Shown: in pieces, positions 1-64,000 of the stretch
Numbering within the stretch: position 1 is the first letter of the stretch
Layout of the letters: every line of letters begins with the position of its first letter
NCBI GenBank assembly: GCA_009914755.4
Contig: CP068257.2
Span: 6,784,001 to 6,848,000, forward strand
Direction of reading: 5' to 3'
DNA length: 64,000 nucleotides
DNA from: the human T2T-CHM13v2.0 reference genome, Homo sapiens
The notes under the pieces: generated by a model
Databases searched by the model: none
Told to the model about the DNA's origin: nothing
Seen by the model: the letters and a program-made list of their open reading frames with translations, nothing else
Translations under genes and position numbers: made by a program

Positions 1-419
1 CAATCAACTTTGGTGGAATGGTATGGAATGGAATGGAAAGGAATGGAATGGAATGGAATAAAAGGGCATGGAATGGAATGAAATCAACCCGAATGGAATG
101 GAACGGAATGGAGTAGAATGGTATAGAATGGAATGGAATGGAAAGGAATCAACCTGAAGGGTATGGAATGGAATGGAATGGAATGGAATTGAATTGAATG
201 GAATGGAATGGAATCAACCAGAGGGGAATGCAATGAAATGAAATGGAATGGAATGGAACGGAAAGCAACGGAACGGAACGGAATTGAATGGAATGGAATG
301 AACCCGAGTGGAAAGGAATGGAATGGAATGGAATGGAATGGAATAACATGCAATCAACTTTGGTGGAATGGTATGGAATGGAATGGAATGGAATGGAATC
401 GAATGGAATGGAATCAACC

Positions 420-1870
420 CGAGTGGAATGCAATGGAATGAAAAGGAATGGAATGGAACGGAACGGAACGGAACGGAACGGAATTGAATGGAATGGAATC
501 AACCCGAGGGGAAAGGAATGGAATGGAATGGAATGGAATGGAATGGAATGGAATGGAATAAAAGGGCATGGAATGGAATGGAATCATCCCGAGGGGAATG
601 GAATGGAATGGAATGGAATGAAATGGAAATGAATCAAACCGAGTGGAATTTAATGTAATATAATGTAATGGAATGGAATGGAAACAATGCAATGCAATGA
701 TATCAACTGGAATGGAATGCATTGGAATGGAATGGAATGGAATCACCCTGAGTGGAAAGGAATAGAATGGAATGGAAAGGAATGTAATGGAATGGAAACT
801 AATGGAACGGAATGGAAACCACCAGAGTGGAATGGAATGCAATGGAATGGAATCGAATGGAATGGAATGGAATGGAATGGAATGGAATGGAATGGAATGG
901 AATAGAATACAACAAAATGGAAACAACCCGAGTGGAATGGCATGGAATGAAAAGGATTGAATATAATGGAATGGATTGGAATCAACCCGATTAGAAACTA
1001 ATGGAATGGAATGGAATGGAATGGAATGGAATGGAATGGAATGGAATGGAATGGAATGGAATCTAACCTAGTGGAATGGAAAGGAATGGAATTTAAAGAA
1101 ATGAAATGGAATGGAATGGAACAGAATTGAATGGAATGGAATGGAATGGAATCTACCCGAGTGAAATGGAATGGAATGGAATTTAATGGAATGGAATGGT
1201 ATAGAATGTAATGGAATCAACCCCAGTGGAATGGTATAGAATGTAATGTAATGGAATGGAATGGAATAAAATGGAATGGAATGGAAACAACCCGAGTGGA
1301 ATGGAATGGAATAACCGGAGAGGAATGGAATGGAATGGAGTGGAATGGAATGGAATAGAATGGAATAGAATGGAAAGGAATAGAATGAAATTGAAAGGAA
1401 TGGAATGGAAACCACCCGAGTGGAATGGAATGGAATGGAATGGAATGCAATGGAAACATCCCGAGTGGAATGGAAAGGAATGGAATGGAACGGAATATAA
1501 TGGAATGGAATGGAAACATCCCGAGTGGAATGGAATGGTATGGAATGCAATTGAATGGTATGGAACAGAACGGAATGAAATGGAATGCAATAGATTGCGA
1601 GTGGAATTGAATGGAATGGAATGGATTGGAATGGAATGGAAAGGATTGGAGTGGAATGGAATGGAATCAACAAGAATGGAATGGAAAGGAATGGAATGGA
1701 ATGGAATGGAATGGAATGGAATGGAATGGAATGGTAAGGAACAGAATGGAAACAACCCGAGTGGAATGGAATGGAATGGACTGTAATCCACCCGAGTGGA
1801 ATGGAATGTAATGGAATTGAACGGAATATAATGGAATTGAATGGAATCATCCCGAGTCGAATGGAATGGT
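420..1870. repeat. Short-variant-specific segment (also ~39135-40590 in copy 4, ~47020-48478 in copy 5)
   Basis: TTTAATGTAATATAATGTAATGG...AAACAATGCAATGCAATGATATCAACTGG occurs only at ~640, ~39370 and ~47275. The peptide signature MPFHSGFFHFVVFHCIPFHS (1068..1967, 39889..40683) occurs only in the short copies (a TRDVSIPFHYIPFHS-related segment is also in copy 5, 47666..48148). The long copies carry only ~85%-type paralogues (e.g. 10200-10480). Confidence 0.6.
903..1003. repeat. Recurring ~100 bp diverged landmark element GAATACAACAAAATGGAAACAACCCGAGTGGAATGGCATGGAATGGAAAGGACTTGAATATAATGGAATGGATTGGAATCAACCCGATTAGAAACTAATGG. Approximate copies start at 905, 1925, 3555, 4640, 11200, 13560, 15325, 17455, 19050, 20130, 26585, 28955, 30710, 32845, 34440, 35525, 39625, 40650, 42265, 43365, 47525, 51625, 57425
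   Basis: Read directly from the sequence. Spacing between neighbours is 1.0-2.4 kb, with a ~6.5 kb landmark-free zone spanning each HOR boundary. Copies at HOR-equivalent positions are identical; copies within a unit differ by a few substitutions (e.g. GATTAGAAACTAATGG vs GATTAGAAATTAATGG; GGAAACAACCC vs GGAAAAAACCC). Confidence 0.75.
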
Positions 1871-4800
1871 ATCTAATGCAATGGAATGGAATGGAATGGA
1901 ATGGAATGGAATGGAATGGAATGCAATGGAACACAACAAAATGGAAAAAACCCGAGTGGAATGGCATGGAATGGAAAGGACTTGAATATAATGGAATGGA
2001 TTGGTATCATCCCGATTAGAAATTAATGGAATGGAATGGAATGGAAAGGAATGGAATGGAATGGAACCTACACAAGTGGAATGGAATGAAATGGAAATAA
2101 ATGGAATGGAATAGAATGGAAAGGAATGGAACGGAATGGAATGGAATGGAATGGAATGGAATCTACCCGAGTGGAATGGAATGGAATGGAATTTAATGGA
2201 ATGGAATGGAATAGAATGGTATGGAATCAACCCGAGTGGAATGGTAAAGAATGCAATGTAATGGAACGGAATGGAATGGAATAAAATGGAATGGAATGGA
2301 ATGGAAACAACCCGAGTTGAATGGAATGGAATGGAATAACCGGAGAGGAATGGAATGGAATGCAGGGTAATGGAATGGAATAGAATGGAATGGAATGGAA
2401 TGGAATAGAATGAAATGGAAAGGAATGGAATAGAAACAACCCGAGTGGAATGGAATGGAATGGAATCCACCCGAGTGGAATGGAATGCAATGGAATTGAA
2501 CGGAATATAATGGAATTGAATAGAATCATCCTGAGTGGAATGGAATGGTATCTAATGCAATGGAGTGGAATGGAACAGAACTGAATGGGATGGAAAGAAT
2601 AGATTGAATCCAAGTGGAATTGAATGGAATGAAATGGATTCGAAAGGAATGGAATGGATTGGAATGGATTGGAATGGAAAGGAATGGATTCAACCCGAGT
2701 GGAATGTAATGGATTGGAATGGAGTGGAATGGAATGGAATGGAATCAACACGAATGGAATGGAACGGAATGGAATGGAATGGTATGGAATGAAATAGAAA
2801 GGAACGGAATAGAATCAACCAAAGTGGAATGGAATGGAATGGAATGGAAGGGAATCAACACGAGTGGAATTGAATGGAAAGGAATGCAATGGAATGGAAT
2901 GGAATGGAATGGAATGGAATGGAATGGAATGCAATGGAATTCAATGGAATCAACCCGAGTGGAATGGAATGCTATGGAATGCAATGGAATGGAGTGGAAC
3001 AGAACGGAATGGAATTGCATGGAATTGATTGAATCCGAGTGGAATTGAACGGAAGGGAATGCATTGGAATGGAAAGGAAAGGATTCAACCCGAGTGGAAT
3101 GTAATGGAATGGAGTGGAGTGGAATGGAATGGTATGGATTGGAATGGAATGGAATGGAATGGAATCAACACAAAGGGAATGGAATGGAATGGAATAGAAT
3201 GGAAAGGAATGGAATGGAATGGTATGGAATGTAATGTAATGGAATGGAATGGAATGAAATGGAATCAACCGGAATGGAATGGAATGGAATGGAATGGAAT
3301 GGAATGGAATGGAATGGAAATGAATCAAACCGAGTGGAATGGAATGGAATGGAATGGAAACAATGCCATGCAATGGTATCAACGGGAATGGAATGCATTG
3401 GAATGGAATGGAATGGAATCACCCTGAGTGGATAGGAAAGGAATGGAAGGGAATGGAAAGGAATGGAATGGAATGGAAACTAATGGAAGGGAATGGAAAC
3501 AACCCGAGTGGAATGGAATGGAATGGAATGGAATGGAATGGAATGGAATGGAATACAACAAAATGGAAACAACCCGAGTGGAATGGCATGGAATGGAAAG
3601 GACTTGAATATAATGGAATGGATTGGAATCAACCCGATTAGAAACTAATGGAATGGAATGGAATGGAATGGAATGGAATGGAATGGAATGGATTGGAATT
3701 TACCCGAATGGAATGGAATGTAATGAAATTAAATGGAATGGAAAGGAATGGAAAGGAATGGAATGGAATCTACACGAGTGGAATGGAATTGAATTGAATT
3801 TAATGGAATTGAACGGAATACAATGATATGGAATCAACCCGTGTGGAATGGTATAGAATGTAATGTAATGGAATGGAATGGAATAAAATGGAATGGACTG
3901 GAATGGAAACAAAACGAGTGGAACGGAATGGAATAACCTGAGAGGAATGGAATGGAATGGAGTGGCATGGAATGGAATAGAATGGAATGGAATGGAATGG
4001 AATAGAATGAAATTGAAAGGAATGGAATGGAAACAACCCGTGTGGAATGGAATGGAAAGGAATCAACCTGAAGGGTATGGAATGGAATGGAATGGAATGG
4101 AATGGAATGGAATGGAATGGAATCAACCAGAGTGGAATGCAATGGAATGAAATGGAATTGAAATGAATGGAATGGAACGGAATGGAACGGAACGGAATTG
4201 AATCGAATGGAATCAACCCAAATTGAAAGGAATGGAATGGAATGGACTGGAATGGAATGGAATGGAATGGAATGGAATGGAATGGATTGGAATGGATTCA
4301 ACACAAATGGAATGGAATGGAACGGAATGGAATAGAATGGAAAGGAGTGGAATGCAATTGAATGGAATGAAATGGAATAAACCCGAATGGAATGGAATGG
4401 AATGGAATGGAATTGAGTGGAATGGAATAAACACCAGTGGAATGAAATGGAATGGAATGGAATGGAATGAAATCAACACGAGTAGAACGGAACGGAATGG
4501 AATGGAATGGAAAGGAATGGAATCAACTGGAATGGAATGAAATGGAATGGAATGGAGTGGAATGTAATGGAATGCAATGGAATCAACAAGAGTGAAATGC
4601 AAAGGAATGGAATGGAATGGAATAGAATGGAATGGAATGGAATACAACAAAATGGAAAGAACTCGAGTGGAATGGCAAGGAATGGAAAGGACTTGAATAA
4701 AATGGAATGGATTGGAATCAACCCGATTAGAAACTAGTGGAAAGGAATGGAATGGAATGGAATCTGCCCGAGTGGAATGGAATGGAATGGAATTGAATGG

Positions 4801-7800
4801 AATGGAATGGAGTGGAATAGAATAGAATGGAATGGAATGGAACGGAATGGAAGGGAATTGAATGGAATAGAATGGAATCGAATCTACCCGAGTGGAATGG
4901 AATGGAAAGGAATTTAATGGAATGGAAAGGAATGGAATGGAATGGAATGGAATGGAATGGAATGGAATGGAATGGAATAAACACCAGTGGAATGAAATGG
5001 AATGGAATGGAATGGAATGCAATGGAATGGAATGGAATGGAGTGGAATGGAATAAACACCAGTGGAATGAAATGGAATGGAATGGAATGGAATGCAATGG
5101 AATGGAATGGAATGGAATGGAATGGAATGGAAACTACTGGAATGGAATGGAAACAACCCGAGTGGAATGGAATGCAATGGAATGGAATGGAATGGAATGA
5201 CACGGAATGGAATGGAATGGACTGGAATGGAATTTAAAGGAATGGAATGGAATCAACCCGACTGGAATGGAATGGAATGTAAAGCAGTGAATGGAATGTA
5301 ATGGAATGAAATGGAATGGAATGGAATGGTATGCAATGCAGTGGAATGGATTTGAATGGAATGGAATGGAACGGAACGGAACGGAATGGAATGGAATGGA
5401 ATGGAATGGAATGGAATGGACACCAATGGAATGGAATGGAATTGAATGGAATGGAATGGAATGGATTGGAATGGATGGGAATGGAATGGAACGGAATTAA
5501 CCGGAGTGGAATGCAATGGAATGGAATGGAGTGGAATGGAATCAACCCGAGTGGAATGGAATGGAATGGAATGGAATGGAATGGAATGGAATGGAATCAA
5601 CACGAATGGACTGGAACGAAATGGAATGGAATGGATTGGAATGGAATGGAATGGAATGGAATGGAATGGAATGGAATGGAATGGAATGGAATAGTATGGT
5701 ATGGAATGAAATGGAAAGAAACAGAATGGAATCAACCCAAGTGGAGTGGAATAGAATGGAATGGAAGGGAATCAATACGAGTCAAATGGAATGGAGTGGA
5801 ATGCTATGGAATGGAATGGAATGAAATGAAATGGAATGTAATGGAATGGAATGGAATTCAAGGGAATCAATCCGAGTGGAATGGAATGGTATGGAATGCA
5901 ATGGAATGGAGTGGAACAGAACGGAATGGAATGGAATGGAATTGATTGAATCCGAATGGAATTGAATGGAAGGGAATGCATTGGAATGGAATAGAAAGGA
6001 TTCAACCCGAGTGGAAAGTAATGGATTGGAATGGAATGGAAAGGAATGGAATGGAATCAACACAAATGGAATGGAATGGAATGGAAAGGAATGGATTGCA
6101 ATGGAATGGAATGGAATGGAATGGAATGGAATGGAATGGAAATGAAAGGAATGGAATGCAATGGAATGGAATGGAATGCAATGGAATGGAATGGAATGCA
6201 ATGGAATGGAATGGAATGAAATGAAATAAACCCGAATGGAATGGAATGGAATGGAATGCAATGCCATGGAATGGAATGGAATGGAGTGGAATGGAATAAA
6301 CAGAAGTGGAATGAATTGGAATGGAATGAAATGGAATGGAATGGAATGGAATGGACTGGAATGAAATAAACCCGAGTAGAATGGAACGGAATGGATTGGA
6401 ATGGAAAGGAATTGAATAAACTGGAATGGAATGAAATGGAATGGAAGGGAGTGGAATGGAATGGAATACAATGGAATCAACACGAGTGGAATGCAATGCA
6501 ACGGAAGGGAAAGGAATGGAATGGAACGGAACCAACCCGAGTGGAGTGGAATAAAGTGGAATGGAATGGAGTATGATCAACCTGAGTGGAACGGAATGCA
6601 ATGGAATGGAATGGAATGGAATGGTTTCAACCAGAGTGGAATGGAATGGAATGGAATGGAACGGAATGGAATGCAATGGACGTAACTGGAATGGAATGGA
6701 ATGGAATGGAATGGAATGGAATGGAATGGAACGGAATCAACATGAGTCAAATGGAATGGAATGGAATGGAATGGAATGGAATGGAATGGAGTCAACACGA
6801 ATGGACTGGAACGTAATGGAATGGAATGGAATGGAATGGTATGGTTTGGAATGAAATGGAAAGGAACGGAATGGAATCAACCCAAGTGGAGTGGAATAGA
6901 ATGGAATGGAAGGGAATGAAGACGAGTCAAATGGAATGGAATGGAATGCAATGGAAAGGAATGGAATGCAATGAAATGGAATGGAATGGAATGGAATGGA
7001 ATGCAATGGAATGGAATGGAATTCAGTGAAATGGAATGGAAAAGAATGGAATGGAATAGAATGGAATCTACTGTAATGGAATGGAAACAACCTGAGTGGA
7101 ATGGAATGCAATGGAATGGAATGGAATGGAATGGAATGGAATGGAATGGAAAGGAACGGAATGTAAAGGAATGGAATGGAATCAACCCGACTGGAATGGA
7201 ATGGAATGGAAAGGAATGAATGGAATGGAATGGAATGGAATGGAATGGAATGGAATGGAATGGAATGGAATTGTATGGAATACAATGATATGGAATTGAA
7301 TGGAATGGAACGGAATGGAACGGAATGGAATGGAATGGACCCCAATGGAATGGAATGGAATGGAATGGATTGGAATGGAATGGAACGGAATTAACCCGAG
7401 TGGAATGGAATGGAATGGAATGGAGTGGAATGGAATGGAATGGAATGGAATGGAATGGAATGGAAAGGAATCAACCCGAGTGGAATGCAATGAAATGGAA
7501 TGCAATGGAATGGAATGGTATGGAATCAACCCTAGTGAAATGGTATGGAATGGAATGGAATGGAACAGAATGGAATGGAATCATCCCGAATGGAATGGAA
7601 AGGAATGGAGAGGAATGGTACGGTATGGAATGGAATGGAAAGGAATCAACCCGAAGGTTATGGAATGGAATGCAATGGAATGGAATGGAATCAACCCGAG
7701 TGGAATGCAATCGAATAAAATGGAATGGAATGAAACGGAAAGGAACGGAATGGAACGGAATTGAAAGGAATGGAATCAAACCGAGTGGAAAGGAATGGAA

Positions 7801-8261
7801 TGGAATGAAATGCAATGGTGTGGAATGGAATGGAAAGGAATAACATGCAATCGACTTTAGTGGAATGGTATGGAATGGAATAATATGCAATCAACTTTGG
7901 TGGAATGGTATAGAATGGAATGGAATGGAAAGGAATCAACCTGAAGGGTATGGAATGGAATGGAATGGAATGGAATGGAATGGAATTGAATTGAATGGAA
8001 TGGAATGGAATGGAATCAACCAGAGGGGAATGCAATGAAATGAAATGGAATGGAATGGAACGGAAAGCAATGGAACGGAACGGAATTGAATGGAATGGAA
8101 TGAACCCGAGTGGAAAGGAATGGAATGGAATGGAATGGAATGGAATGGAATAACATGCAATCAACTTTGGTGGAATGGTATGGAATGGAATGGAATGGAA
8201 TGGAATCGAATGGAATGGAATCAACCCGAGTGGAATGCAATGGAATGAAAAGGAATGGAAT

Positions 8262-8288
8262 GGAACGGAACGGAACGGAACGGAACGG
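8262..8288. repeat. Example of a CpG-retaining (GGAAC)5 variant run; homologous runs at ~456-485, 23669-23695, 39172-39198, 47068-47094, 49800-49826
   Basis: Direct reading: GGAACGGAACGGAACGGAACGGAACGG. Confidence 0.85.
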
Positions 8289-8299
8289 AATGGAATGGA

Positions 8300-11200
8300 A
8301 TGGAATCAACCCGAGGGGAAAAGAATGGAATGGAATGGAATGGAATGGAATGGAATGGAATGGAATGGAATGGAATAAAAGGGCATGGAATGGAATGGAA
8401 TCATCCCGAGGGGAATGGAATGGAATGGAATGGAATGGAATGGAATGGAATGGAATGGAATGGAATCAACCTGAGTTGAACGGAATGGAATGGAATGGAA
8501 TGGAATGGAATGGAATGGTATCAACCAGAGTGGAATGGAATGGAATTGAATGGAATGGAACGGAATGGAATGCAATGGAATCAACTGGAATGGAATGGAA
8601 TTGAATGAAATGGAATGGAATCAACCTCAGTCAAATAGAATGGAATGGAATGGAATGGAATGGAATGGAATGGAATGGAATGGAATGGAATGGAATGGAA
8701 GGGAAAGGAACGGAATGGAATCAACCCGAGTGGAATGGAATGGAATGGAATGGAATCCACCCGAGTGGAATGGAATGGAATGGAATGCAATGGAATTGAA
8801 CGGAATATAATGGAATTAAATGGAATCATCCCGTGTGGAACAGATTGGTATCTAATGCAATGGAATGGAATGGAACAGAACGGAATGGAATGGAAGAATA
8901 GATTGAATCCAATTGGAATTGAATGGAATGGAATGGATTGGAAAGGAATGGAATGGATTGCAATGGATTGGAATGGAAAGGAATGGATTCAGCCCGAGTG
9001 GAATGTAATGGATTGGAATGGAATGGAATGGAATGGAATGGAATGGAATGGTATGGAATGAAATGGAAAGGAACGGAACAGAATCAACACAAGTGGAATG
9101 GAATGGAAAGGAATGCAATTGAATGGAATGGAATGGAATGGAATGGAATGGAATGGAATGGAATGGAATCAACCCGAGTGGAGTAGAATGGAATGGAATG
9201 GAATGAACCGCAGTGGAATGGAATGGAATGGAATGCAATAGAATGGAATGGAATGGAAAGGAATGGAATTCAATGGAATCAACCCGAGTGGAATGGAATG
9301 GTATGGAATGCAATGGAATGGAGTGGAACAGAACGGAATGGAATGGAATGGAAATGATTGAATCTGAGTGGAATTGAATGGAAGGGAAAGCATTGGAAAG
9401 GAATGGAAAGGATTCAACCCGAGTGGAATGTAATGGATTGGAATGGAGTGGAATGTAATGGAATGGATTGGAATGGAATGGAATCAACACAAATGGAAAG
9501 GAATGGAATGGAATGGAATAGAATGGAAAGGAATGGAATGCAATGGAATGGAATGGAATGGAATGAAATGGAATAAACCCGAATGGAATGGAATGGAATG
9601 GAATGGAATGGAATGAATTGGAATAAACCCGAGTGGAATGGAATGGAATGGAATGGAAAGGAATGGAATGGAGTGGAATGGAATGGACTGGAATGGAATG
9701 CAAAGTAATGGAATGGAACCAACCCGACTGGAATGGAATGGAATGGAATGGAAAGGAATGAATGGAATGGAATGGAATGGAATGGTATGGAATGCAATCG
9801 GATGGAATTCAATGGAATGGAACACAATGGAATGGAATGGAATGGAATGGGCCCCAATGGAATGTAATGTAATGGAATGGATTGGAATGGAATGGAATGG
9901 AATTAACCCGAGTGGAATGGAATGTAATGGAATGGAATGGAATGGAATCAACCCGAGTGGAAAGGAATGGCATGCAATCGAATGGAATGGAATGGAATCA
10001 ATCCAAGAGGAATGGAATGGAATGAAATGGAAAGCAATGGAATGGAATGGAATGGAATGGAATGGAATGGAATGGAATGGAATGGAATGGAATCAACCCG
10101 AGTGGAAAGGAATGGCATGCAATCGAATGGAATGGAATGGAATGGAATCAATCCAAGAGGAATGGAATGGAATGGAATGGAATGCAATGGAATGGAATGG
10201 AATGGAATGGAATGGAATGGAATGGAAATGAATCAAACCGAGTGGAATGTAATGTAATGTAATGGAATGGAATGGAATTTAAACAATGCAATGCAATGGT
10301 ATCAACTGGAATGGAATGCATTGGAATCGAATGGAATGGAATCACCCAGAGTTTAAAGGAATGGAATGGAATGGAATGGAATGGAATGGAATGGAATGGA
10401 AAGGAATGGAATGGAATGGAAACTACAGGAACCGAAAAGAAAGAACCCGAGTGGAATGGAATGCAATGCAATGGAAAGGAATGGAATGGAATGGAATGGA
10501 ACGGAATAAAATGGAATGGAATGGAATCATCCCGAGTGGAATGGAATGACATGGAATGCAATAGAATGGAATGGAACAGAACGGAATGAAATGGAATGGA
10601 ATAGATTGAATGCGAGTGGAAATGAATGGAACGGAATGGATTGGAATGGAATGGAATGGATTGAAGTGGAATGGAATGGAATCAACACGAATGGAATGGA
10701 ACGGAATGGCAGGGATTGGAAAGGAACGGAATGGAATCAACCCGAGTGGAATGGAATGGAATGGAATCCACCCGATTGGAATGAAATGGAATGCAATGTA
10801 ATGGAATGCATTGGAATCAACTCGAGTGGAATGGAATGGAATGGAATGGAATGGAATGGAATGGAATGGAAGAGAATCGAATCCAATGGAATCAACTGGA
10901 ATGGAATGGAATGGAATGGAATGGAATGGAATGGAATGGAATGGAATCAATCCGGGTGGAATGGAATGGAATGGAATGGAGTGCACTGGAATTAAATGGA
11001 GTGGAATGGAATGGAATGGAATCAACCCGTATGGAATGGAACGGAATGGAATGGAAAGGAATGGAATGGAATGGAATGGAATGGAATGGAATGGAATGGA
11101 ACAGAATAGAATGGAATCAGCCCAAATGGGATGGAATGGAATGGAATGGAATGGAATGGAATGGAATGGAATGGAATGGAATGGAATGGAATGGAATGGA

Positions 11201-17200: not shown

Positions 17201-17400
17201 ATGGAATGGAATTTCATGAAATGGAATGGAATGGAATGGTATGGAATAAACACGACTGGAATGGTATGGAATGGAACGGAATGGAATGGAATAAAATGGA
17301 ATGGAATGGAATGGAATCAACTCGAGTGAAATGGAATGGAATGAAATGGAATGGAAAGGAATGTAATCAACCGGAGTGGAGTGGAATGGAATGGAGTAGA
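8300..17400. repeat. Long-variant-specific segment (copy 2; equivalent block in copy 3 at ~23700-32800), itself built from nested diverged duplications (~10500-11300 ~ 12140-12830 ~ 15950-16600; 12830-13660 ~ 16600-17450; 11280-11520 ~ 13640-13880 ~ 17530-17790)
   Basis: Artefact ORFs 10516..10995, 12141..12821 and 15856..16329 translate to near-identical peptides (MEWNHPEWNGM[T/A]WNAIEWNGTERNEMEWNRLNASG...). So do 12826..13140 and 16606..16851 (MEYNGMEWKGMESTQVHWNGMECNGINPRVMEWK...). No exact counterpart in copies 1, 4 or 5. Confidence 0.65.
8412..8466. repeat. Example of a pure (GGAAT)11 run; dozens of similar uninterrupted runs of 8-14 pentamers occur throughout (e.g. 1005-1060, 12001-12050, 32180-32235)
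   Basis: Direct reading. Confidence 0.9.
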
Positions 17401-54339: not shown

Positions 54340-57300
54340 GAATAATATGCAATCAACTTTGGTGGAATGGTATAGAATGGAATGCAATGGAATGGAATGG
54401 AATGGAATGGAATGGAATGGAATCAAACCGAGTGGAATGCAATGGAATGGAATAGAATGGAATGGAATGGAATGGAATCAACCCGAAGGAAATGGAATGG
54501 AATGGAAAGGAATGAATGCAATGGAATGGAATGGGATGGTATGGAATGCAATGGGATGGAATTGAATGGAATGGAACGGAATGGAACGGAATGGAATGGA
54601 CCTCAATGGAATGGAATGGAATGGAATGGATTGGAATGGGATGGAACGGAATTAACCCGAGTGGAATGGAATGGAATGGAATGGAACGGAATGGAATGGA
54701 ATGGAATGGACCCCAATGGAATGGAATGGAATGGAATGGAATGGAATGGAATGGAATCAACCCGAGTGGAATGTAATGGAATGGAATGCAATGAAATGGA
54801 ACGGTATGGAATCAACCCTAGTGGAATGGTGTGGAATGGAATGGAACGGAACGGAATGGAATGGAATGGAATCAACCTGAATGGAATGGAATGGAATGCA
54901 GTGGAAAGGTACGTAATGGAATGGATTGGAAAGGAATCAACTCGAAAGGTATGGAATGGAATGCAATGGAATGGAACGGAATGGAATGGAATCAACCTGA
55001 GTGGAATGCAATGGAATAAAATGGAATGGAATGGAACGGAACGGAACGGAATGGAACGGAATTGAAAGGAATGGAATCAATCCGAGTGGAAAGGAATGGA
55101 ATGGAATGGAATGGAATTTAGTGGAATGGAATGGAATGGAATAACATGCAATCAACTTTGGTGGAATAGTATGGAATGAAATAACATGCAATCAACTTTG
55201 GTGGAATGGTATGGAATGGAATGGAAAGGAATGCAATGGAATGGAATAAAAGGGCATGGAATGGAACGGAATCAACCCGAATGGAATGGAACGGAATGGA
55301 GAGGAATGGTATGGAATGGAATGGAATGGAAAGAAATCAACCCAAAGGGTATGGAACGGAACGGAATAGAATGGAATGGAATCAACCCGAGTGGAAAGGA
55401 ATGGAAAGAAATGGAATGGAATGTAATGGAATGGAATAACATGCAATCAATTTTTGTGGAATGGTATGGAATGGAATGGAATGGAATGGAATGGAATGGA
55501 ATGGAAAGGAATGGAATAAAAGGGCATGGAATGGAACGGAATCAACCCGAATGGAATGGAGAGGAATGGAGTGGAATGGTATGGAATGGAATAGAATGGA
55601 AAGGAATCAACACGGAGGGTGTGGAATGGAATGGAATGGAATGGAAAAGAATGGAATCAACACGATTGCAATGCAATGGAATGAAATATAATGGAATGGA
55701 ATGGAACGGAACGGAACGGAATTGAAAGGAATGGAATCAACCCGAGTGGAATGCAATGCAATGGAATGGAATGGAATGGAATGGAATGGAATGGAATAAA
55801 AGGGCATGGAATTGAATGGAATCAACCTGAGAGGAATGGAATGGAATGGAATGGAATGGAATGGAATAGAATGGAATGGAATAAAAGGGCATGGGATGGA
55901 ACAGAATCAACCCGAATGGAATGGATCGGAATGGAGTGGAACGGTATTGAATGGAATCGAAAGGAAAGGAATCAATCTGAGGGGTATGTAATGGAAAGGA
56001 ATGGAATGGAATGGAATGGAATCAGCCCGACTGGACTGCAATGGAATGAAATGGAATGGAATGGAAAGGAATGGAACGGAACGGAACAGAACCGAACAGA
56101 ATTGAATGGAATGGAATCAACCCAAGTGGAAAGGAATGGAATGGAATGGAATGGAATGGAATGGAAAGGTATGGAATGGAATAGCATGCAATCAACTTTG
56201 GTGGAATGGTATGGAATAGAATGGAATGGAATGAAATAAAAGGGCATGGAATGGAACGGAATCAAACCGAATGGAATGGAACGGAATGGAGTGGAATGGT
56301 ATGGAATGGAATGGAATGGAAAGAAATCAACCCGAAGGGTATGGAATGGAATGGAATTGAAAGGAATGGAATGGAATGGAATCAACCCGAGAGGAATGCA
56401 ATGGAATGAAATGGAATGGAATGGAACGGAACGGAACGGAATAGAATGGAATGGAATCAACCCGAGTGGAAAGGAATGGAAAGAAATGGAATGGAGTGTA
56501 ATGGAATGCAATAACATGCAATCAACTTTGGTGGAATGGTATGGAATGGAATGGAATGGAATGGAATGGAATTGAATGGAATGGAATGGAATGGAAAGGA
56601 ATGGAATAAAAGGGCATGGAATGGAACGGAATCAACCCGAATGGAATGGAGCGGAATGGAGTGGAAAGGTATGGAATGGAATGGAATGGAAAGGAATCAA
56701 CCCGAAGGGTGTGGAATGGAATGGAATGGAATGGAAAAGAATGGAATCAGCACGATTGGAATACAATGGTATGAAATGTAATGGAATGGAACGGAACGGA
56801 ATAGAACGGAATTGAAAGGAATGGAATCAACCCGAGTGGAATGGAATGAAATGCAACGGAATGGAATGGAATGGAATGGAATGGAATGGAATGGAATAAC
56901 ATGAAATCAACTTTGGTGGAATGATTGGAATGGAATGGAATGGAATGGAATGGAATGGAATGGAATGGAATAAAAGGACATGGGATGGAAAAGAATCAAC
57001 CCAAAAGGAATGCATCGGAATGGAGTGGAATGGTATTGAATGGAATCGAATGGAAAGGAATCAACCTGAAGGGTATGGAATGGAAAGGAATGGAATGGAA
57101 TGGAATGGAATGGAATCAGCCCGACTGGAATGCAATGGAATGAAATGGAATGGAATGGAAAGGAATGGAAAGGAACGGAACAGAACGGAACAGAATTGAA
57201 TGGAATGGAATCAACCCAAGTGGAAAGGAATGGAATGGAATGGAATGGAATGGAATGGAATGGAATGGAATGGAATGGAATGGAAAGGTATGGAATGGAA

Positions 57301-57400
57301 TAGCATGCAATCAACTTTGGTGGAATGGTATGGAATGGAATGGAATGGAATAGAATGGAAACTACTGGAATGGAATGGAAATAAACCGAGTGGAATGGAA
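54340..57400. repeat. Second stretch of the ~300-400 bp ATAACATGCAATCAACTTTGGTGG / ATAAAAGGGCATGG sub-repeat, ~8-9 irregular copies
   Basis: Marker positions ~54351, 55150, 55188, 55443, 56190, 56519, 56907 and 57309 (spacings 290-800). ATAAAAGGGCATGG is present in each. Confidence 0.65.
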
Positions 57401-60400
57401 TGCAATGGAATGGAATGGAATGGAATGGAATACAACAAAATGGAAACAACCCGAGTGGAATGGCATGGAATGGAAAGGACTTAAATATAATGGAATGGAT
57501 TGGAATAAACCCAATTAGAAACTAATGGAATGGAATGGAATGGAATGGAATGGAATCTACCCGAGTGGAATGGAATGGAATGGAATTTAATGGAATGGAA
57601 TGGAATGGAATGGAATGGAACGGAATGGAATGGAATGGAATGTACCCGAGTGGAATGGAATGGAATGGAATTTAATGGAATGGAATGGAATAGAATGGTA
57701 TGGAATCAACCCGAGTGGAATGGTATAGTATGGAATGTAATGGAACGGAATGCAATGCAATAAAATGGAATGCAATGGAATGGACACAACCCAAGTGGAA
57801 TGGAATGGAATAACCGGAGAGGAATGGAATGGAATGGAGTGGAATGGAATGGAATAGAATGGATTGGAATGGAATGGAATAGAAAGAAATGGAAAGGAAT
57901 GGAATGGAAACAACCCGAGTGGAATGGAATGGAATGGAATGGAATCAACACGAGTGGAATGGAATGGAATGGAATGGAATGGAATGGAATGGAATGGAAC
58001 GGAATATAATGGACTGGAATGGAGTCATCCCGAGTGGAATGGAATGGTATGGAATGCAATGGAATGGAATGGAACAGAACGAAATGAAATGCAATGGAAT
58101 AGATTGAATGCGAGTGGAATTGAATGGAATGGAATGGATTGGAATGGAAAGGTATGGATTGGAGAGGAATTGAATGGAATCAACACGAATGGAAAGGAAG
58201 GCAATGGAATGGAATGCAAAGGAACGGAATGGAATCATCCAGAATGGAATGGAATGGAATGGAATGAAATTGAATGGAATGGAATGGAATGGTATAGAAT
58301 GACCCGAGTGTAATGGTATAGAATGCAATGGAATGGAACGGAATGGAATGGAATAAAATGGAAAGGAATGGAATGGAATCGACCCGAGTGAAATGGAATG
58401 GAATGGAATGGAAAGGAAGTGAATCAACCTGAGTGGAATGGAATGGAATGGAATGGAATGGAATGGAATGGAATGGAATGGAATCAACCAGAATGGAGTG
58501 GAACAAAATGGAATGGAATGGAATGGAATGCAATGGAATCAATTGGAATGGAATGGAATGGATTGGAATGGAACAGAATCAACACGAATCAAATGGAATG
58601 GAATGGAATGGAATGCAATGGAATGGAATGGAATGGAAACTACTGGAATGGAATAGAATCAACCTGACTGGAATGGAATGCAATGGAATGGAATGGAATG
58701 AAATGGAATGGAAAGGAATAGAATGAAATCAACACTAGTGGAATGAATGGAATGGAATGGAAAGGAATGGAATGGAATGGAATGGAATCAACACGAATGG
58801 AATGGAACGGAATGGAATGGAATGGAATGGAATGGAATGGAATGTAACGGAATGGAATGCAATGGAATCAACTGGAATGGAATGGAATGGATTGGAATGG
58901 AACGGAATCAACATGAATCAAATGGAATGGAATGGAATGGAATGCAATGGAATGGAATGGAATGGAATGGAAACTACTGGAATGGAATAGAATCAACCCG
59001 ACTGGAATGGAATGCATTGGAATGGAATGGAATGAAATGGAATGGAAAGGAATGGAATGGAATCAACACTAGTGGAATGAATGGAATGCAATGGAAAGGA
59101 TTGGAATGGAATGGAACAGAATGGAATGGTATGGAATCAATCCGAGAGGAATAGTATGGAATGGAATGGAAAGGAACGAAATGGAATGGAATAAAATGTA
59201 ATTGAATGCAATGGAATCAACCCGAGTGAAATGGAATGGAATGGAATGGAATGGAATGGAATGCAATCAATCCGACTGGAATGCAATGGAATGGAATGGA
59301 AGGGAATGGAATGTAATGGAATCAACAAGAGTGGAATGGAATGGAATGGAATGGAATGGAATGGAATGGAATGGAATGGAATGGAATGGAAAAGAATCTA
59401 CCTATGTCAAATGGAATGGAATCGAATGGAATGGAAATTACTGGAATGGAATGGAAACAAACCGAGTGTAATGGAATGCATTGGAATGTAATGGAATGGA
59501 ATGGAATGGAATCAACACTAGTGGAATGAATGGAATGGAATGGAGAGGAATGGAATGCAATGGAGCGGAAAGGAATGGTATGGAATCATCCTGAGAGGAA
59601 TAGTATGGAATGGAATGGAATGGAACGGAATGGAATGGAATAAAATGTAATTGAATGCAATGGAATCAACCCGAGTGAAATAGAATGGAATGGAATGGAA
59701 TGGAATGCAATCAATCCGACTGGAATGCAATGGAATGGAATGGAAGGGAATGGAATGTAATGGAATCAACAAGAGTGGAATAAAATGGAATGCAACGGAA
59801 TCACCCCGAGTGGAATGAAATGGAATATAATGCAATGAAATGGAATGGAATCAACACTAGTGGAATGGAATAGAATGGAATGGAATGGAATGGAACGGAA
59901 TGCAAGGCAATGTAATCAACTGGAATGGAATGGAATGGAATGGAATGGATTGGAATGGAATGGAATGGAGTGGAATGGAGTGGAATGGAATAACATGCAA
60001 CCAACTTTGGTGGAATGGTATGGAATGGAATGGAAAGGAATGCAACGGAGTGGAATAAAAAAGGCATGGAATGGAACTGATTCAACCCGAATGGAATGGA
60101 ACGGAATGGAATGCAATGGAATCAACTGGAATGGAGTGGAATGGATTGGAATGGAACGGAATCAACCTGAGCGAAATAGAATGGAATGGAATAGATTGGA
60201 AACTACTGGAAGGGAATGGAAACAACCTGACTGGAATGGAATGCAATGGAATGGAATGGAATGGAATGGAATGGAATGGAATGGAATGGAATGGAATGGA
60301 AACAACCCGAATGAAATGGAATGGAATGGAAAGGAATGAATGCAATGGAATGGAATGGGATGGTATGGAATGCAATGGGATGGAATTGAATGGAATGGAA

Positions 60401-63400
60401 CGGAATGGAACGGAATGGAATGGACCTCAATGGAATGGAATGGAATGGAATGGATTGGAATGGGATGGAACGGAATTAACCCGAGTGGAATGGAATGGAA
60501 TGGAATGGAACGGAATGGAATGGAATGGAATGGACCCCAATGGAATGGAATGGAATGGAATGGAATGGAATGGAATCAACCCGAGTGGAATGTAATGGAA
60601 TGGAATGCAATGAAATGGAACGGTATGGAATCAACACTAGTGGAATGGTGTGGAATGGAATGGAACGGAACGGAATGGAATGGAATGGAATCAACGTGAA
60701 TGGAATGGAATGGAATGGAATGGAATGGAATGGAATGGAATCAACCAGAGTGGAATGGAATGGAATGGAATGTAACGGAAGGGAATGTAATGGAATCAAA
60801 TGGAATGGAATGGAATGGAATCAACCTGAGTCAAATGGAATGGAATGGAATGGAATGGAATGGACTGGAAACTACTGGAATGGAATGGAAACAACCCGAG
60901 TGGCATGGAATGCAATGGAATGGAATGGAATGGAACGGAATGGAATGGAATGGAATGGACTGGAAACTACTGGAATGGAATGGAAACAACCCGAGTGGCA
61001 TGGAATGCAATGGAATGGAATGGAATGGAATGGAATGGAATGGAATGGAAGGTAAAGGAATGGAATGGAATCAACCAGCCTGGAATGAAATGGAATGGAA
61101 AGGAATGAATGGAATGGAATGGAATGGAATGGAATGGAGTAAACCCGAGTGGAATGGAATGGAATGCAATGGAATGGAATGGAATGCAGTGGAATGGAAT
61201 GGAATGAAATGGAATGGAATGGATTGGAATGGAATTGAATGGAATCAACCGTAGTGGCATGGAATGTAATGGAATGGAGTGGAATGCAATGGAATGGAAT
61301 GGAATGGAATGGAATTGAAGGGAATTGACCCGAATGGAACGGATTGGAATGGAATGGAATGGAATGGAATCAAATGGAATGGAATGGAATGGTATGGGAT
61401 GAACCCGAGTGGAATGGTATGGAATGGAATGGAATGGAACGGAATCGAATGGAATAAAATGGAAAGGAATGGAATGGAATCAACCAGACTGAAATGCAAT
61501 GGAATGGAATGGAAAGGAATCAAGCGGAGTGGAATAGAATGGAATGGAGTGGAATTGAATGGAATGGAATGGAATGGAATGAAATGGAAAGGAACGGAAT
61601 GGAATCACCCCGAGTGGAATGGAACAGAATGGAATGGAATGGAATCAACCTGCGTGGAATGGAATGGAACGGAATGGAATGCGATGGAATGGAACGGAAT
61701 GGAATGGAATGGAACGGAATCATCCTGAGTGGAATGGAATGGTATGGACAGCAATGGAATGCAATGGAACAGAATGGAATGGAATGGAATGGAATAAACT
61801 GAATCCGAGTGAAATTGAATGGAATGGATTGGATTGGAATGGAATGGAAGGGATTGGAATGCAATGGAATGGATTCACCCAAGTGGAATGTAACAGTTAG
61901 GAATGGAGTGGAATGGAATGGATTGGAATGGAACCAACACGAATGGAATGGAACGCAATGGAAACGAATGGTATGGAATGGAATTGAATGGAAAGGAATC
62001 AACCCGAATGGAATGGAATGGAATGGAATGGAATGGAATGGAATGGAATGGAATGGAATCAACCAGAGAGCAATGCAATGGAATGGATTGCAACGGAATG
62101 GAATGGAATGTAACGGAACGGAACAAATGGAATGAACCCTAATGGAATGGAATGGAATGGAATGGATTGGAATGGAATGGAATGGAATCAACCAGAGTGG
62201 AATGGAATGGAATGGAATGGAGTGGAATGGAATGGAATTGAATGGAATGGAATAGAATGGAATCAACCCGAATGGAATGGAATGGAATGGAATGGAATGG
62301 AATGGAATGGAATGGAAAGGAATGGAATGCATTTGACTGGAATGGAATACAATGGAATCAAGTGGAATGGAATGCAATGGAATGGAATGGAAAGGAACTG
62401 CATCAACCTGAGTGGAATGGAATGGAATGGAAAGGAATGGATTGGAATGGAATGGAATGGAATCAACCCGAGTGGAGTTGAATAAAATGGAATGGAATGG
62501 AATGGAATGGAATGGAATGGAATGGAATCAACTGGAATGGAATAGAATCAACCCGAGTGGAGTGGAATAAATGGAGTGGAATGGAATGGAATCAAGCCGA
62601 GTGGAACGGAATGGAATAGAATGGAATGGAATGGAATGGAATGGAATCAACCTGAGTGGAGTGGAATAAAATGGAATGGAATGGAATGGAATCAAGCCGA
62701 GTGGAATGGAATGGAATGGAATGGAGTGGAATGGAATGGAATCAACCCGAGTGGAATGGAATGGAATGGAATGGAATGGAATGGAATGGAATGGAATGGA
62801 ATGCAATAGAATCAACTGGAATGGAATGGAATGGAATGGAATGGAATGGAATGGAATGGAAAGAATCAACCTGAGTCAAATGGAATGGAATGGAATGGAA
62901 TGGAATGGAATGGAATGGAATGGAATGGAAACTACTGGAATGGAATGGAAACAAACCGAATGGAATGGAATGCATTGGAATGTAATGGAAAGGAATGGAA
63001 TGGAATCAACCCTAGAGGAATGAATGGAATGAAATGGAAAGGAATGGAATGGAATGGAGCAGAATTGAATGGTATGGATTCAACCGGAGAGGAATAGTAT
63101 GGAATGGAATGGAATGGAACGGAATGGAATGGAATAAAATGTAATTGAATGGAATAGAATCAACCCACAGGAAATGTAATATAATGGAATGGAATGGAAT
63201 GGAATGAACCCGAGTGGAATGCAATGGAATGGAATGGAATGGAATGGAATGGAATGGAATAAACCATAGTGGAAAGAAATGGAATATAATGCAATAGAAT
63301 TGAATGGAATCAACCCCAGTGGAGTGGAACAGAATGGAATGAAAAGTAACAGAATGGAAGGCAATGCAATGAACTGGAATGGAATGGAAAGCAATGGAAT

Positions 63401-64000
63401 GGAATGGAATGGAATGGAGTCAATCCGGGTGGAATGGAATGGAATGGAATGGAATGGAATGGAATGGAAAGGAATGCATTGGAATGGAATTGAATGGAGT
63501 GGAATGGAATGGAATGGAATGGAATGGAAAGGAATGCATTGGAATGGAATTGAATGGAGTGGAATGGAATGGTATGGCATGGAATGGAATATACCCGAAT
63601 GGAATGGAACAGAATGGAATGGAAAGGAATGGAAAGGAATGGAATGGAATGGAGTGGAATGGAATGGAACGCTACGGAGTCAAACCGGGTCTAATGGAAA
63701 TAAATGGAATGGAATGGAATGGAATCAACCCGAATGGAATGGAATGGAATGGAATGGAAAGGAAAGAATGGAATGGAAGGTCATGGAATCAACCCGAGTG
63801 GAATGGAATGGAATGGAATGGAATGGAATGGAATGGAATGGAATGGAATGGAATGCAAAGGAATGGAATGGAATGGAATGGAATGCAAAGGAATGGAATG
63901 GAATGGAACGGAAAGAAACGGAATGGAATGTCACGGAATGGAATGAACCCGAATGGAATGGAATGGAATGGATTGGAATGGAATGGAATGGAATCAACTC

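What the first reader, a model, noticed from the sequence alone, without database searches (positions are those of the whole stretch)
1..64000. Window is hominoid Satellite III (HSat3) heterochromatin; the ORF track is entirely artefactual
On the given strand the sequence is essentially (GGAAT)n broken every ~50-120 bp by CAACCCGAGT-family decamers, which is the defining structure of HSat3. The ORF peptides are all MEWNGMEWNG... on + (ATG GAA TGG AAT GG) or IPFHSIPFHS... on - (CATTC phase). They are long only because the pentamer repeat has few stop codons in some frames. No segment has ordinary coding composition, an RBS or promoter context, or any non-satellite insert. The prior that something novel is encoded here is not supported.
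Basis: partly seen in the sequence, partly recalled or inferred. Interest (0 to 1): 0.5.

Follow-up and report, generated by a model that had tools for sequence, protein, structure and literature searches.

The report
Ordinary Satellite III (HSat3) repeat DNA
The whole 64 kb window is classical human-type Satellite III DNA, a (GGAAT)n tandem repeat punctuated by CAACCCGAGT-like decamers and arranged in larger 7.8 and 15.4 kb repeat blocks, so it is a well-known kind of non-coding sequence and its long "ORFs" are by-products of the repeat.

Summary
Tandem Repeats Finder (TRF) reports one period-5 array over 14-63994. There are 6,831 exact GGAAT on + against 2 ATTCC. No 40-bp stretch lacks degenerate-pentamer character, so there is no insert. 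CAACCCGAGT-family decamers occur 675 times on + (3.4 in shuffles), with median spacing 80 bp (IQR 60-120). All 116 ORFs of at least 150 aa are MEWNG-like (+) or IPFHS-like (-). They have no Shine-Dalgarno core upstream, and Rfam finds nothing. Their only Pfam and PDB hits are reproduced by synthetic perfect repeats.

The youngest copies differ almost only by indels that are multiples of 5 bp. Local structure of this kind is already described for HSat3.

"Entirely artefactual" is slightly too absolute. The + strand is the HSATIII sense RNA strand, and a 2025 preprint reports stress-induced MEWNG-rich proteins.

Subfamily, chromosome and species could not be determined with these tools. Already known; low interest.

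The parts
1..64000 (+). Uninterrupted Satellite III (HSat3) array with the G-rich GGAAT strand on +. There is no inversion and no non-satellite insert.
   Evidence: TRF single period-5 array over 14-63994. 6,831 GGAAT against 2 ATTCC, with the longest uncovered stretch 20 bp. Flat GC content and skew. Low-identity 40-mers are all degenerate pentamers.
415..424 (+). Example of the CAACCCGAGT decamer. There are 145 exact and 675 within-2-mismatch copies on +, and it is the main carrier of the C residues.
   Evidence: sequence; counts, spacing median 80 bp, 599/674 spacings a multiple of 5, and 54% of all C bases lie in decamer hits.
1..1900 (+). Tail (about 1.9 kb) of a 7.8 kb repeat-unit variant that starts upstream of the window. 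It equals 38724-40620 and 46606-48500.
   Evidence: 32-mer chains at offsets of about 38.7 kb (8-7911) and 46.6 kb (8-1896). 8-7911 against 38724-46627 shows 1 substitution and 8 indels.
1901..17400 (+). Nested tandem repeat unit U1, 15.5 kb (the phase is arbitrary).
   Evidence: The offset ~15.4 kb chain covers 1901-23832. U1 against U2: 15,307 matches, 3 substitutions, 19 indels, all multiples of 5 bp.
17401..32815 (+). Nested tandem repeat unit U2, 15.4 kb, a near-identical copy of U1.
32816..40650 (+). 7.8 kb variant unit X3: the first ~6.5 kb of U plus a ~1.9 kb tail.
   Evidence: The offset ~7.8 kb chain covers 32816-40874. The head is 95.6% identical to the U1 head, and X3 is 96.6% identical to X4.
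40651..48540 (+). 7.9 kb variant unit X4. About 200 bp of a further unit head follow (to about 48750), after which homology is lost.
48750..64000 (+). HSat3 of the same pentamer-plus-decamer type but with no close long copy inside the window. Identity to the other blocks is at background level.
   Evidence: No hit of at least 90% identity and 1.2 kb. No 40-mer offset chains except a small one at +5.8 kb near 54.5 kb. Background identity between unrelated blocks is 75-77%.
14221..14261 (+). Example of the least pentamer-like marker (CAGAACGGAATGGAATGGAAAGAATAGATTGAATCCAAGTG). It recurs at 2574, 8874, 14221, 18094, 24269, 29606, 33484, 41290, 48494 and 52812, which traces an older 4-6 kb sub-period.
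   Evidence: The same 29-mer is found in 4 outside HSat3 contigs.
34690..36072 (-). Longest mechanical ORF (460 aa, IPFHS-like). It is an artefact of the C-rich strand reading frame.
   Evidence: Pfam Pentapeptide_4 scores 44.1 bits for the whole protein but no stretch passes on its own. Synthetic repeats give the same hit. No PDB hit. Not on record as a called gene.
54382..55065 (+). Representative + strand ATG ORF (227 aa, MEWNG-like). It is not a bacterial gene. It lies on the strand that corresponds to HSATIII sense RNA.
   Evidence: Literature.

Best explanation
The window is a piece of a classical Satellite III (HSat3) array of the human/hominoid type. It is non-protein-coding tandem-repeat DNA, normally found next to centromeres.

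Structure (shown here). A (GGAAT)n ground repeat is punctuated about every 80 bp by CAACCCGAGT-like decamers. This diverged ground repeat (about 75% identity between unrelated blocks) has been re-amplified locally as multi-kilobase nested tandem repeats. There are two 15.4 kb units, two 7.8 kb deletion-type variants of that unit, and a 38.7 kb super-period. The units have almost no substitutions between them, so the amplification is very recent.

How the array evolves (inferred from the copy differences). Unequal exchange or gene conversion acts at the kb scale. Slippage or unequal exchange in pentamer register acts at the 5-20 bp scale.

What it does (not tested here; follows from published work on the family). 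The DNA offers a very dense platform of GGAATG sites for TEAD-type factors. Under heat stress, HSat3 arrays are transcribed from the G-rich strand into HSATIII RNA, which scaffolds nuclear stress bodies.

ORFs. The long ORFs exist because (GGAAT)n has no stop codon in any of the six frames. They are not genes in the sense of the ORF track.
For: Identity:
- A single period-5 array with strand purity.
- The decamer family occurs 675 times against 3.4 in shuffles, in 5-bp register. This matches the published description of HSATIII as GGAAU repeats interspersed with CAACCCGARU.
- No HSat2 24-mer matches even at 2 mismatches.
- Only 2 HaeIII sites and no KpnI site, so it is not DYZ1 or the chr15 KpnI type.

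Not coding:
- Pfam hits are only periodicity hits, reproduced by synthetic repeats.
- PDB and Rfam are negative.
- There is no SD core, and promoter-like sites are depleted.
- Stop codons are 2-3 times rarer than base composition predicts, equally in all frames.

Nested repeats:
- 32-mer and 40-mer recurrence peaks at 15.39, 7.8 and 38.7 kb.
- U1 against U2: 3 substitutions and 19 indels in 15.3 kb. 8-7911 against 38724-46627: 1 substitution and 8 indels. All 27 indels are multiples of 5 bp. Background identity is 75-77%.
- kb-scale nested tandem repeats that vary locally are described for HSat3 in T2T-CHM13.

Function by family:
- 5,715 GGAATG sites on + (89 per kb), with TEAD/YAP binding to HSat3 reported.
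- One-strand, HSF1-dependent stress transcription.

Outside relatives:
- 12 HSat3 fragments from metagenomes and contaminated bacterial assemblies share the exact junction 32-mer or the marker 29-mer and are 80-88% identical.
Against: - No primate reference, RepeatMasker/Dfam or cenSat annotation was available, so the identification rests on defining sequence features and not on an alignment to an annotated HSat3 locus.
- None of the 14 'most common subfamily-specific 24-mers' of Altemose 2014 matches exactly. Subfamily, chromosome and even species (human or another ape) are therefore undetermined.
- No outside fragment is closer than 88% identity.
- There is no canonical trimeric HSF1 element in the window: 0 GAAnnTTCnnGAA. 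This block shows no sequence sign of being a direct HSF1 entry site.
- Transcription, TEAD binding and chromatin state were not tested and cannot be tested from sequence.
- The predominance of 5-bp-multiple indels between the youngest copies could partly reflect assembly errors in pentamer-run length.
Confidence: 0.95

Rival explanations
1. The + strand MEWNG ORFs are not purely artefactual. [quoted passage not shown]
For: The + strand is the GGAAU sense strand. It carries 43 ATG-initiated ORFs of at least 150 aa (17.6-29.0 kDa, maximum 240 aa). These sizes overlap the 20-40 kDa smear detected with an anti-(MEWNG)n antibody in heat-shock recovery, which was sensitive to cycloheximide and to HSATIII knock-down (preprint 10.1101/2025.11.12.688122).
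Against: This is a single preprint. The endogenous protein sequences and the source loci are undetermined by its own account. Stress transcription is described mainly for 9q12, and the location of this window is unknown. There is no canonical HSF1 element here. No conserved, non-repetitive protein signal exists. Even if true, it would not make the ORF track's gene calls or any - strand ORF real.
Confidence: 0.08
2. The ORFs are real genes for pentapeptide-repeat proteins (Qnr/MfpA-like beta-helix proteins), as a bacterial annotation pipeline might suggest.
For: ORF 34690-36072(-) scores 44.1 bits against Pfam Pentapeptide_4, above the 38-bit whole-protein cut-off. ORF 54382-55065(+) has a marginal PDB hit to Qnr, E = 0.0034.
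Against: In both cases no individual stretch passes on its own. Synthetic perfect (IPFHS)40 and (MEWNG)40 give the same Pentapeptide_4 hit (31 bits at 200 aa) together with Extensin_1, Lamprin and LD_SV2 hits, so the score accumulates from 5-residue periodicity alone. ORFs overlap in all six frames. There is no SD core and promoter-like sites are depleted. The underlying DNA is one 64 kb pentamer array.
Confidence: 0.01
3. It is another GGAAT-containing repeat and not HSat3: HSat2, the Y-chromosomal DYZ1 block, a disease-type (TGGAA)n expansion such as SCA31, or a GGAAT satellite of a non-primate.
For: All of these share the GGAAT/CATTC core. Species and locus were not determined here.
Against: HSat2-specific 24-mers give 0 hits even at 2 mismatches, and ATCATCGAATGGAA occurs 0 times. 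The HaeIII sites (2, spaced 15,395 bp apart) do not fit the 3.56 kb DYZ1 unit. The decamer family is abundant and in register, which is the HSat3 hallmark. 64 kb with no unique flank, together with multi-kb nested repeats, does not fit an intronic 2.5-4 kb expansion (SCA31 size is from my own knowledge). The exact junction motif turns up as low-coverage contaminant contigs in unrelated bacterial assemblies, which is typical of human DNA.
Confidence: 0.02
4. The near-identical 15.4 and 7.8 kb blocks are an assembly artefact (repeat mis-joining or duplication), not real genomic structure.
For: The copies differ by only 1-3 substitutions. Nearly all differences are changes in pentamer-run length, which is the error type expected of long-read consensus in simple repeats.
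Against: The older pairs (X3/X4, and the U head against the X3 head) show graded divergence with 28-43 substitutions, as expected of real layered amplification. Locally varying nested tandem repeats and recent expansions are documented in validated T2T HSat3 arrays.
Confidence: 0.03

Closest known systems
Human Satellite 3 (HSat3, classical satellite III), in particular decamer-bearing arrays with locally varying nested tandem repeats such as the chr20 HSat3B3 array described in T2T-CHM13
   Same: A (GGAAT)n/(CATTC)n ground repeat, interspersed CAACCCGA(A/G)T decamers, strand-pure blocks tens of kb long, multi-kb nested tandem repeats whose period changes locally, and small zones of very recent expansion (literature).
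   Different: Nothing in kind. The exact subfamily is not assigned: there are 0 exact hits to any of the 14 top subfamily 24-mers, and the nearest 1-mismatch hits (HSat3B1, 14 of them) only reflect the shared decamer. The 15.4 and 7.8 kb periods are longer than the 0.6-3.6 kb clone units listed in 2014. I could not retrieve the period values of the T2T arrays, which are given only in figures.
DYZ1 / HSat3A6 (Y chromosome) and the chr15 KpnI family (HSat3A5)
   Same: The pentamer-derived HSat3 family with kb-scale repeat units.
   Different: DYZ1 has a 3,564 bp unit and the chr15 family has 1.8/3.6 kb KpnI units. Here HaeIII cuts twice in 64 kb and KpnI never. Their diagnostic 24-mers are absent.
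Human Satellite 2 (HSat2)
   Same: Descends from the same CATTC ancestor and has a similar pericentromeric role.
   Different: HSat2 has a longer diverged unit rich in ATCGAT-type motifs. The three HSat2 24-mers have no hit within 2 mismatches. The window has only 67 TaqI sites in 64 kb.
SCA31 (TGGAA)n insertion and its WNGME pentapeptide-repeat product
   Same: The same pentamer and the same predicted peptide repeat. It is mentioned as an analogue by the HSATIII-protein preprint.
   Different: That is a short intronic expansion without CAACCCGAGT decamers or nested kb units (from my own knowledge). The window is 64 kb of decamer-punctuated satellite with no unique flanks.
Pentapeptide-repeat proteins (Pfam PF13599; Qnr)
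   Same: Five-residue periodicity, which produces weak profile hits.
   Different: There is no domain-level hit. Synthetic repeats give the same scores. It is a false friend and not a relative.

Membership tests
HSat3 (classical satellite III) | The bulk of the sequence is a tandem (GGAAT)n/(CATTC)n pentamer array | tested here: met
   TRF period-5 array over 14-63994 with 12,809 copies. 6,831 exact GGAAT. 79.8% of bases are covered at 1 mismatch or fewer.
HSat3 (classical satellite III) | Interspersed CAACCCGA(A/G)T decamers on the G-rich strand | tested here: met
   675 copies within 2 mismatches against 3.4 in shuffles, all oriented with the pentamers, median spacing 80 bp. The definition is quoted.
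HSat3 (classical satellite III) | Distinct from HSat2 (no HSat2-type unit or markers) | tested here: met
   0 hits to the HSat2A1, 2A2 and 2B 24-mers at 2 mismatches or fewer. 0 ATCATCGAATGGAA.
HSat3 (classical satellite III) | Organisation into kb-scale nested tandem repeats that may vary locally | tested here: met
   15.4 kb (two copies), 7.8 kb (two copies) and a 38.7 kb super-period. Literature.
HSat3 (classical satellite III) | Aligns to an annotated hsat3 block (RepeatMasker/Dfam, T2T-CHM13 cenSat) in a pericentromeric or acrocentric region of a hominoid genome | not testable with these tools
   No primate reference or repeat library was available. The public scans reach only microbial and metagenome collections, which yielded 12 contaminant HSat3 fragments at 80-88% identity.
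HSat3 subfamily (A1-A6, B1-B5; Altemose 2014) | [quoted passage not shown] | tested here: inconclusive
   Only the single top 24-mer of each subfamily was available, and all give 0 exact hits. The stored full list is truncated before HSat3. Zero hits weighs against subfamilies with high marker coverage (3A3, 3A6, 3B1, 3B2, 3B4, 3B5) and says little about 3B3, 3A1, 3A2, 3A4 and 3A5.
DYZ1 / HSat3A6 | A 3.56 kb unit with a HaeIII site per unit, and the HSat3A6 24-mers | tested here: not met
   2 HaeIII sites spaced 15,395 bp apart. No recurrence peak near 3.56 kb; the nearest is at 3,775-3,780 bp. 0 hits within 1 mismatch to the A6 24-mer. Unit size.
Pentapeptide-repeat proteins (PF13599) | A domain-level match that is not explained by periodicity alone | tested here: not met
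   The whole-protein score of 44.1 bits exceeds the cut-off for one ORF, but 0 stretches pass. Synthetic (IPFHS)40 and (MEWNG)40 score 31 bits at 200 aa.
Stress-transcribed HSATIII locus (nuclear stress body template) | HSF1-dependent transcription of the G-rich strand on heat shock | not testable with these tools
   This needs expression data. The sequence shows only that the G-rich strand is + and that canonical trimeric heat-shock elements are absent (0). Family behaviour.

The most novel reading that the evidence does not exclude
This array could be one of the so far unidentified templates of the stress-induced MEWNG-rich 'HSATIII proteins'. Its 43 ATG ORFs of 150-240 aa on the GGAAU strand (17.6-29.0 kDa), each ended by stop codons created by pentamer variants, would then give concrete sequences and junction peptides for a protein class whose sequences are reported as undetermined.
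Probability: 0.06. Interest if true: 0.4.

Novelty: already known. Interest (0 to 1): 0.06.

Why it matters
It matters mainly as a negative result. This window should be filtered out of a search for new genetic systems. All of its ORFs, including the one that formally passes a Pfam cut-off, come from a repeat that has no stop codon in any frame.

The same sequence family turns up as low-coverage contaminant contigs in bacterial genome assemblies and as a chimera in a metagenome contig. A simple GGAAT/CAACCCGAGT filter would therefore remove a recurring source of spurious 'proteins'.

Biologically the window is a clean, ordinary example of how HSat3 arrays evolve: very recent multi-kb re-amplification on top of an old, diverged pentamer repeat, with pentamer-register indels outnumbering substitutions about 7 to 1 in the youngest copies. 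That adds detail to known behaviour and no new principle.

Tried and rejected
- Ungapped whole-window lag identity lost phase within about 200 bp because of indels, so it was useless for long periods. I replaced it with k-mer recurrence.
- Whole-window self-BLAST timed out. I replaced it with chunked megablast and pairwise global alignments.
- Subfamily assignment with the 14 Table-1 24-mers gave no exact hit. The stored copy of the full 24-mer list (Dataset S2) is truncated within HSat2A1 and has no HSat3 entries.
- The T2T supplement gives NTR periods only as images.
- Public scans: the marker 29-mer has 0 hits in bacterial and archaeal genomes and 4 metagenome contigs. The generic junction 32-mer hits 8 contaminant contigs. 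All are at the 80-88% background, and none comes from this array or carries a species label.
- Exact look-up of two ORF products in public assemblies found nothing on record.
- The hypothesis that the 15.4 kb unit is a dimer of two related 7.7 kb halves is rejected. The halves are 75.9% identical, which equals the background.
- Deliberately not run: the large protein-database searches and structure prediction. Any hit to a (MEWNG)n or (IPFHS)n query would be another translated satellite and could not change the verdict.

Full report
**What is there.**
The first 3 kb read as GGAAT pentamers broken by CAACCCGAGT-like decamers. The same holds for the whole window.
- Tandem Repeats Finder returns one row: a period-5 array over 14-63994 with 12,809 copies, consensus TGGAA and 73% matches.
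- There are 6,831 exact GGAAT on the + strand and only 2 ATTCC, so the array is strand-pure with no inversion.
- GGAAT within one mismatch covers 79.8% of the bases, and the longest uncovered stretch is 20 bp.
- GC content (0.40-0.42) and GC skew (+0.62 to +0.70) are flat along all 64 kb.
- Best-phase identity of 40-bp windows to (GGAAT)n averages 83%. Only 13 clusters of at most 51 bp fall to 50% or less, and every one is a degenerate-pentamer motif such as AACAGAACGGAATGGAATGGAAAGAATAGATTGAATCCAAGTGG.
- There is therefore no transposon, gene or unique-sequence insert.

**The decamer.**
- CAACCCGAGT occurs 145 times exactly, 437 times within one mismatch and 675 times within two. These are all on +, against 21 on - and a mean of 3.4 in base-shuffled sequence.
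- Spacing between successive copies has a median of 80 bp (IQR 60-120, 10th-90th percentile 45-163). 599 of 674 spacings are multiples of five, so the decamer sits in register with the pentamers.
- The decamer hits cover 10.5% of the window and hold 54% of its cytosines.
- The commonest variants include CAACCTGAGT and CAACCCAAGT, the two products of CpG decay. CpG observed/expected is 0.73 overall.
- This is the published description of Satellite III/HSATIII: GGAAU repeats interspersed with less frequent CAACCCGARU.

**The ORFs.**
- The mechanical ORF list has 116 ORFs of at least 150 aa. Every one is MEWNG-like on + or IPFHS-like on -, and they overlap one another in several frames.
- Five residues make up 73-75% of the ORF residues. 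Residue identity is 0.49 at lag 5 and below 0.05 at lags that are not multiples of 5.
- Stop codons are 3.2 times (+) and 1.9 times (-) rarer than base composition predicts, equally in the three frames of each strand. This follows from arithmetic: 5 and 3 are coprime, so all frames read the same 15-nt cycle, which has no stop on either strand.
- Pfam finds only repeat or low-complexity families (Pentapeptide_4, Extensin_1, LD_SV2, MiAMP1).
- One ORF (34690-36072, - strand, 460 aa) formally exceeds the Pentapeptide_4 whole-protein cut-off, 44.1 against 38 bits, but none of its stretches passes on its own.
- As a control I scanned synthetic perfect (IPFHS)40 and (MEWNG)40. They give the same Pentapeptide_4 hit (31 bits at 200 aa), plus Extensin_1, Lamprin and LD_SV2. 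The scores therefore arise from five-residue periodicity and not from homology.
- PDB sequences give no hit for the longest ORF, and only a marginal Qnr hit (E = 0.0034, no stretch passing) for a + ORF.
- Rfam has no match at gathering thresholds.
- Sigma-70-like sites are ten-fold depleted (4 against 47.5 +/- 6.8). Terminator-like sites are at chance (11 against 11.6).
- None of the 116 long-ORF starts has a GGAG/GAGG core at -16 to -5.

Nearest-neighbour distances of 32-mers peak sharply at 15,385-15,395 bp, with further peaks near 15,495, 7,806-7,892 and 38,706-38,726 bp. Chaining shared 32-mers gives this layout:

| Window position | Block |
|---|---|
| 1-1900 | tail of a 7.8 kb unit that starts upstream |
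| 1901-17400 | U1, 15.5 kb |
| 17401-32815 | U2, 15.4 kb |
| 32816-40650 | X3, 7.8 kb (first 6.5 kb of U plus a 1.9 kb tail) |
| 40651-48540 | X4, 7.9 kb, followed by about 200 bp of another unit head |
| 48750-64000 | no close long copy in the window |

Global alignments give:

| Pair | Identity | Substitutions | Indels |
|---|---|---|---|
| U1 / U2 | 98.4% | 3 | 19 |
| 8-7911 / 38724-46627 | 99.2% | 1 | 8 |
| X3 / X4 | 96.6% | 43 | 30 |
| U1 head / X3 head | 95.6% | 28 | 266 gap columns (events not counted) |
| unrelated blocks | 75-77% | - | - |
| two halves of U | 75.9% | - | - |

- The two halves of U are no more alike than unrelated blocks, so U is not a dimer.
- In the two youngest pairs all 27 indels are multiples of 5 bp (5, 10, 20 and one of 110), and most lie inside pentamer runs.
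- A low-pentamer marker motif recurs every 4-6 kb (2574, 8874, 14221, 18094 and so on) and traces an older sub-period.
- I read this as an old, diverged pentamer-plus-decamer array that has been re-amplified very recently in multi-kb blocks by unequal exchange or conversion. On top of that, pentamer-register slippage is the fastest mutational process. The amplification mechanism is inference. In addition, part of the 5-bp-multiple indel excess could come from assembly errors in run length.

**Comparison with what is known.**
- The T2T centromere study names exactly this organisation 'nested tandem repeats'. It reports new NTRs in several HSat2,3 arrays and states that periodicity varies across an array.
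- Its Fig. S10 shows wide variation of the predominant NTR length between ~100 kb subregions of the chr20 HSat3B3 array, and small regions of recent expansion.
- The clone-based unit sizes tabulated in 2014 are 0.6-3.6 kb. The 7.8 and 15.4 kb units here are longer than those, but they are the same kind of thing.
- DYZ1 (3,564 bp HaeIII unit) and the chr15 KpnI family are excluded: HaeIII cuts twice, 15,395 bp apart, and KpnI never cuts.
- HSat2 is excluded, with no hit within two mismatches to its three diagnostic 24-mers.

**Subfamily, chromosome and species are unresolved.**
- None of the 14 'most common subfamily-specific 24-mers' matches exactly. The best 1-mismatch counts (HSat3B1 14, B3 6) only reflect the shared decamer context.
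- Table S4 shows that specific 24-mers cover 45-46% of 3A3 and 3A6, 20% of 3B1 and 12-15% of 3B2, 3B4 and 3B5, but only 0.2-5% of 3A1, 3A2, 3A4, 3A5 and 3B3.
- Zero hits therefore argues modestly against the first group and says little about the second. This is weak, because I could test only one 24-mer per subfamily and because the window holds only about 40 kb of distinct sequence.
- The stored copy of the full list is truncated before HSat3.
- A marker 29-mer has no match in 185,579 bacterial and archaeal genomes and matches four metagenome contigs. A generic junction 32-mer matches eight short contigs in bacterial assemblies.
- All twelve fragments are HSat3 at 80-88% identity to the window, which is close to the family background, and none comes from this array.
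- Two ORF products are not on record in the public gene-call index.
- 'Hominoid' therefore remains a reasonable but untested label. That the family appears as a widespread laboratory contaminant is what one expects of human DNA.

**How it most likely works.**
Shown here: the anatomy above, and 5,715 GGAATG sites on + (89 per kb) with none on -.

Established for the family, not tested for this locus:
- GGAATG is the constrained TEAD core. About 72% of genome-wide core matches lie in HSat3, and HSat3 arrays bind TEAD and recruit YAP.
- HSF1-dependent stress transcription of Satellite III runs essentially from one strand and yields stable RNAs. These are GGAAU-rich and scaffold nuclear stress bodies.

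The window has no canonical trimeric heat-shock element (0 GAAnnTTCnnGAA and only 4 TTCnnGAA). It therefore shows no sequence sign of being an HSF1 entry site itself.

**A caveat on 'entirely artefactual'.**
- A 2025 preprint reports that HSATIII RNAs are exported during recovery from heat shock, are found on polysomes, and give a 20-40 kDa signal with an anti-(MEWNG)n antibody. The signal is sensitive to cycloheximide and to HSATIII knock-down.
- The + strand here carries 43 ATG ORFs of at least 150 aa (17.6-29.0 kDa, maximum 240 aa), which overlaps that size range.
- This does not rescue the ORF track. The - strand ORFs, the GTG and TTG starts and the bacterial gene model remain artefacts. 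But the statement that nothing is ever translated from such sequence is no longer safe.
- I put the chance that this particular array contributes at under 10%.

**Verdict.**
This is already-known Satellite III satellite DNA with an ordinary, if nicely resolved, nested-repeat architecture. Interest is low.

Noticed in passing
window 1901-32815 and 8-7911 / 38724-46627: In the youngest repeat copies, indels outnumber substitutions by about 7 to 1 (27 indels against 4 substitutions in about 23 kb). Every indel is a multiple of 5 bp, including one 110-bp difference at 6675. This is either pentamer-register slippage or unequal exchange, or partly errors in assembled run length.
   Followed up: partly
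L004:1-1290 (ERZ1699242 NODE-1195, coverage 0.87): This is a chimeric metagenome contig. About 520 bp of ordinary-complexity, bacterial-looking coding sequence is fused to HSat3. It contains a 93-aa ORF with a weak P-loop NTPase/ParA hit (E = 1.7e-4, below the Pfam cut-off). A second ORF runs from a membrane-protein-like N-terminus straight into ...KEWN from the satellite.
   Followed up: partly
L005-L012: Eight short contigs (275-1846 bp), several with assembler-reported coverage below 1, are deposited as parts of bacterial genomes: Paenibacillus tyrfis, a Streptococcus parasanguinis MAG, Mycobacterium sp., Micromonospora sp., Thermomonas alba (two), Streptomyces sp. and Vibrio owensii. They are pure HSat3, 80-88% identical to the window, and so are host-DNA contamination that would yield spurious MEWNG/IPFHS 'proteins'.
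   Followed up: partly
window 2574, 8874, 14221, 18094, 24269, 29606, 33484, 41290, 48494, 52812: The least pentamer-like motif (…GGAAAGAATAGATTGAATCCAAGTGG…) recurs every 4-6 kb, including once in the otherwise unrepeated 48.7-64 kb part. It is shared exactly (29-mer) with four outside HSat3 contigs that are only 85-87% identical overall. It is therefore an old landmark of a wider HSat3 lineage.
   Followed up: partly
window-wide; e.g. 9850 and 25245 (HaeIII), 25 EcoRI sites: CpG observed/expected is 0.73. CpGs are concentrated in GGAACGGAAT (234 copies) and in the decamer (AACCCGAGTG, 163 copies). The decamer variants CAACCTGAGT (22) and CAACCCAAGT (19) look like CpG-decay products. Restriction sites repeat with the 15.4 kb period.
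   Followed up: no
window + strand ORFs, e.g. 54382-55065, 12141-12821, 5316-5945: The decamer produces three frame-specific junction peptides inside the MEWNG repeats: GINPSGMEWNG, ESTRVEWNG and NQPEWNG. ATG ORFs on + reach at most 240 aa (29 kDa). These could serve as search targets if the reported HSATIII proteins are pursued.
   Followed up: no
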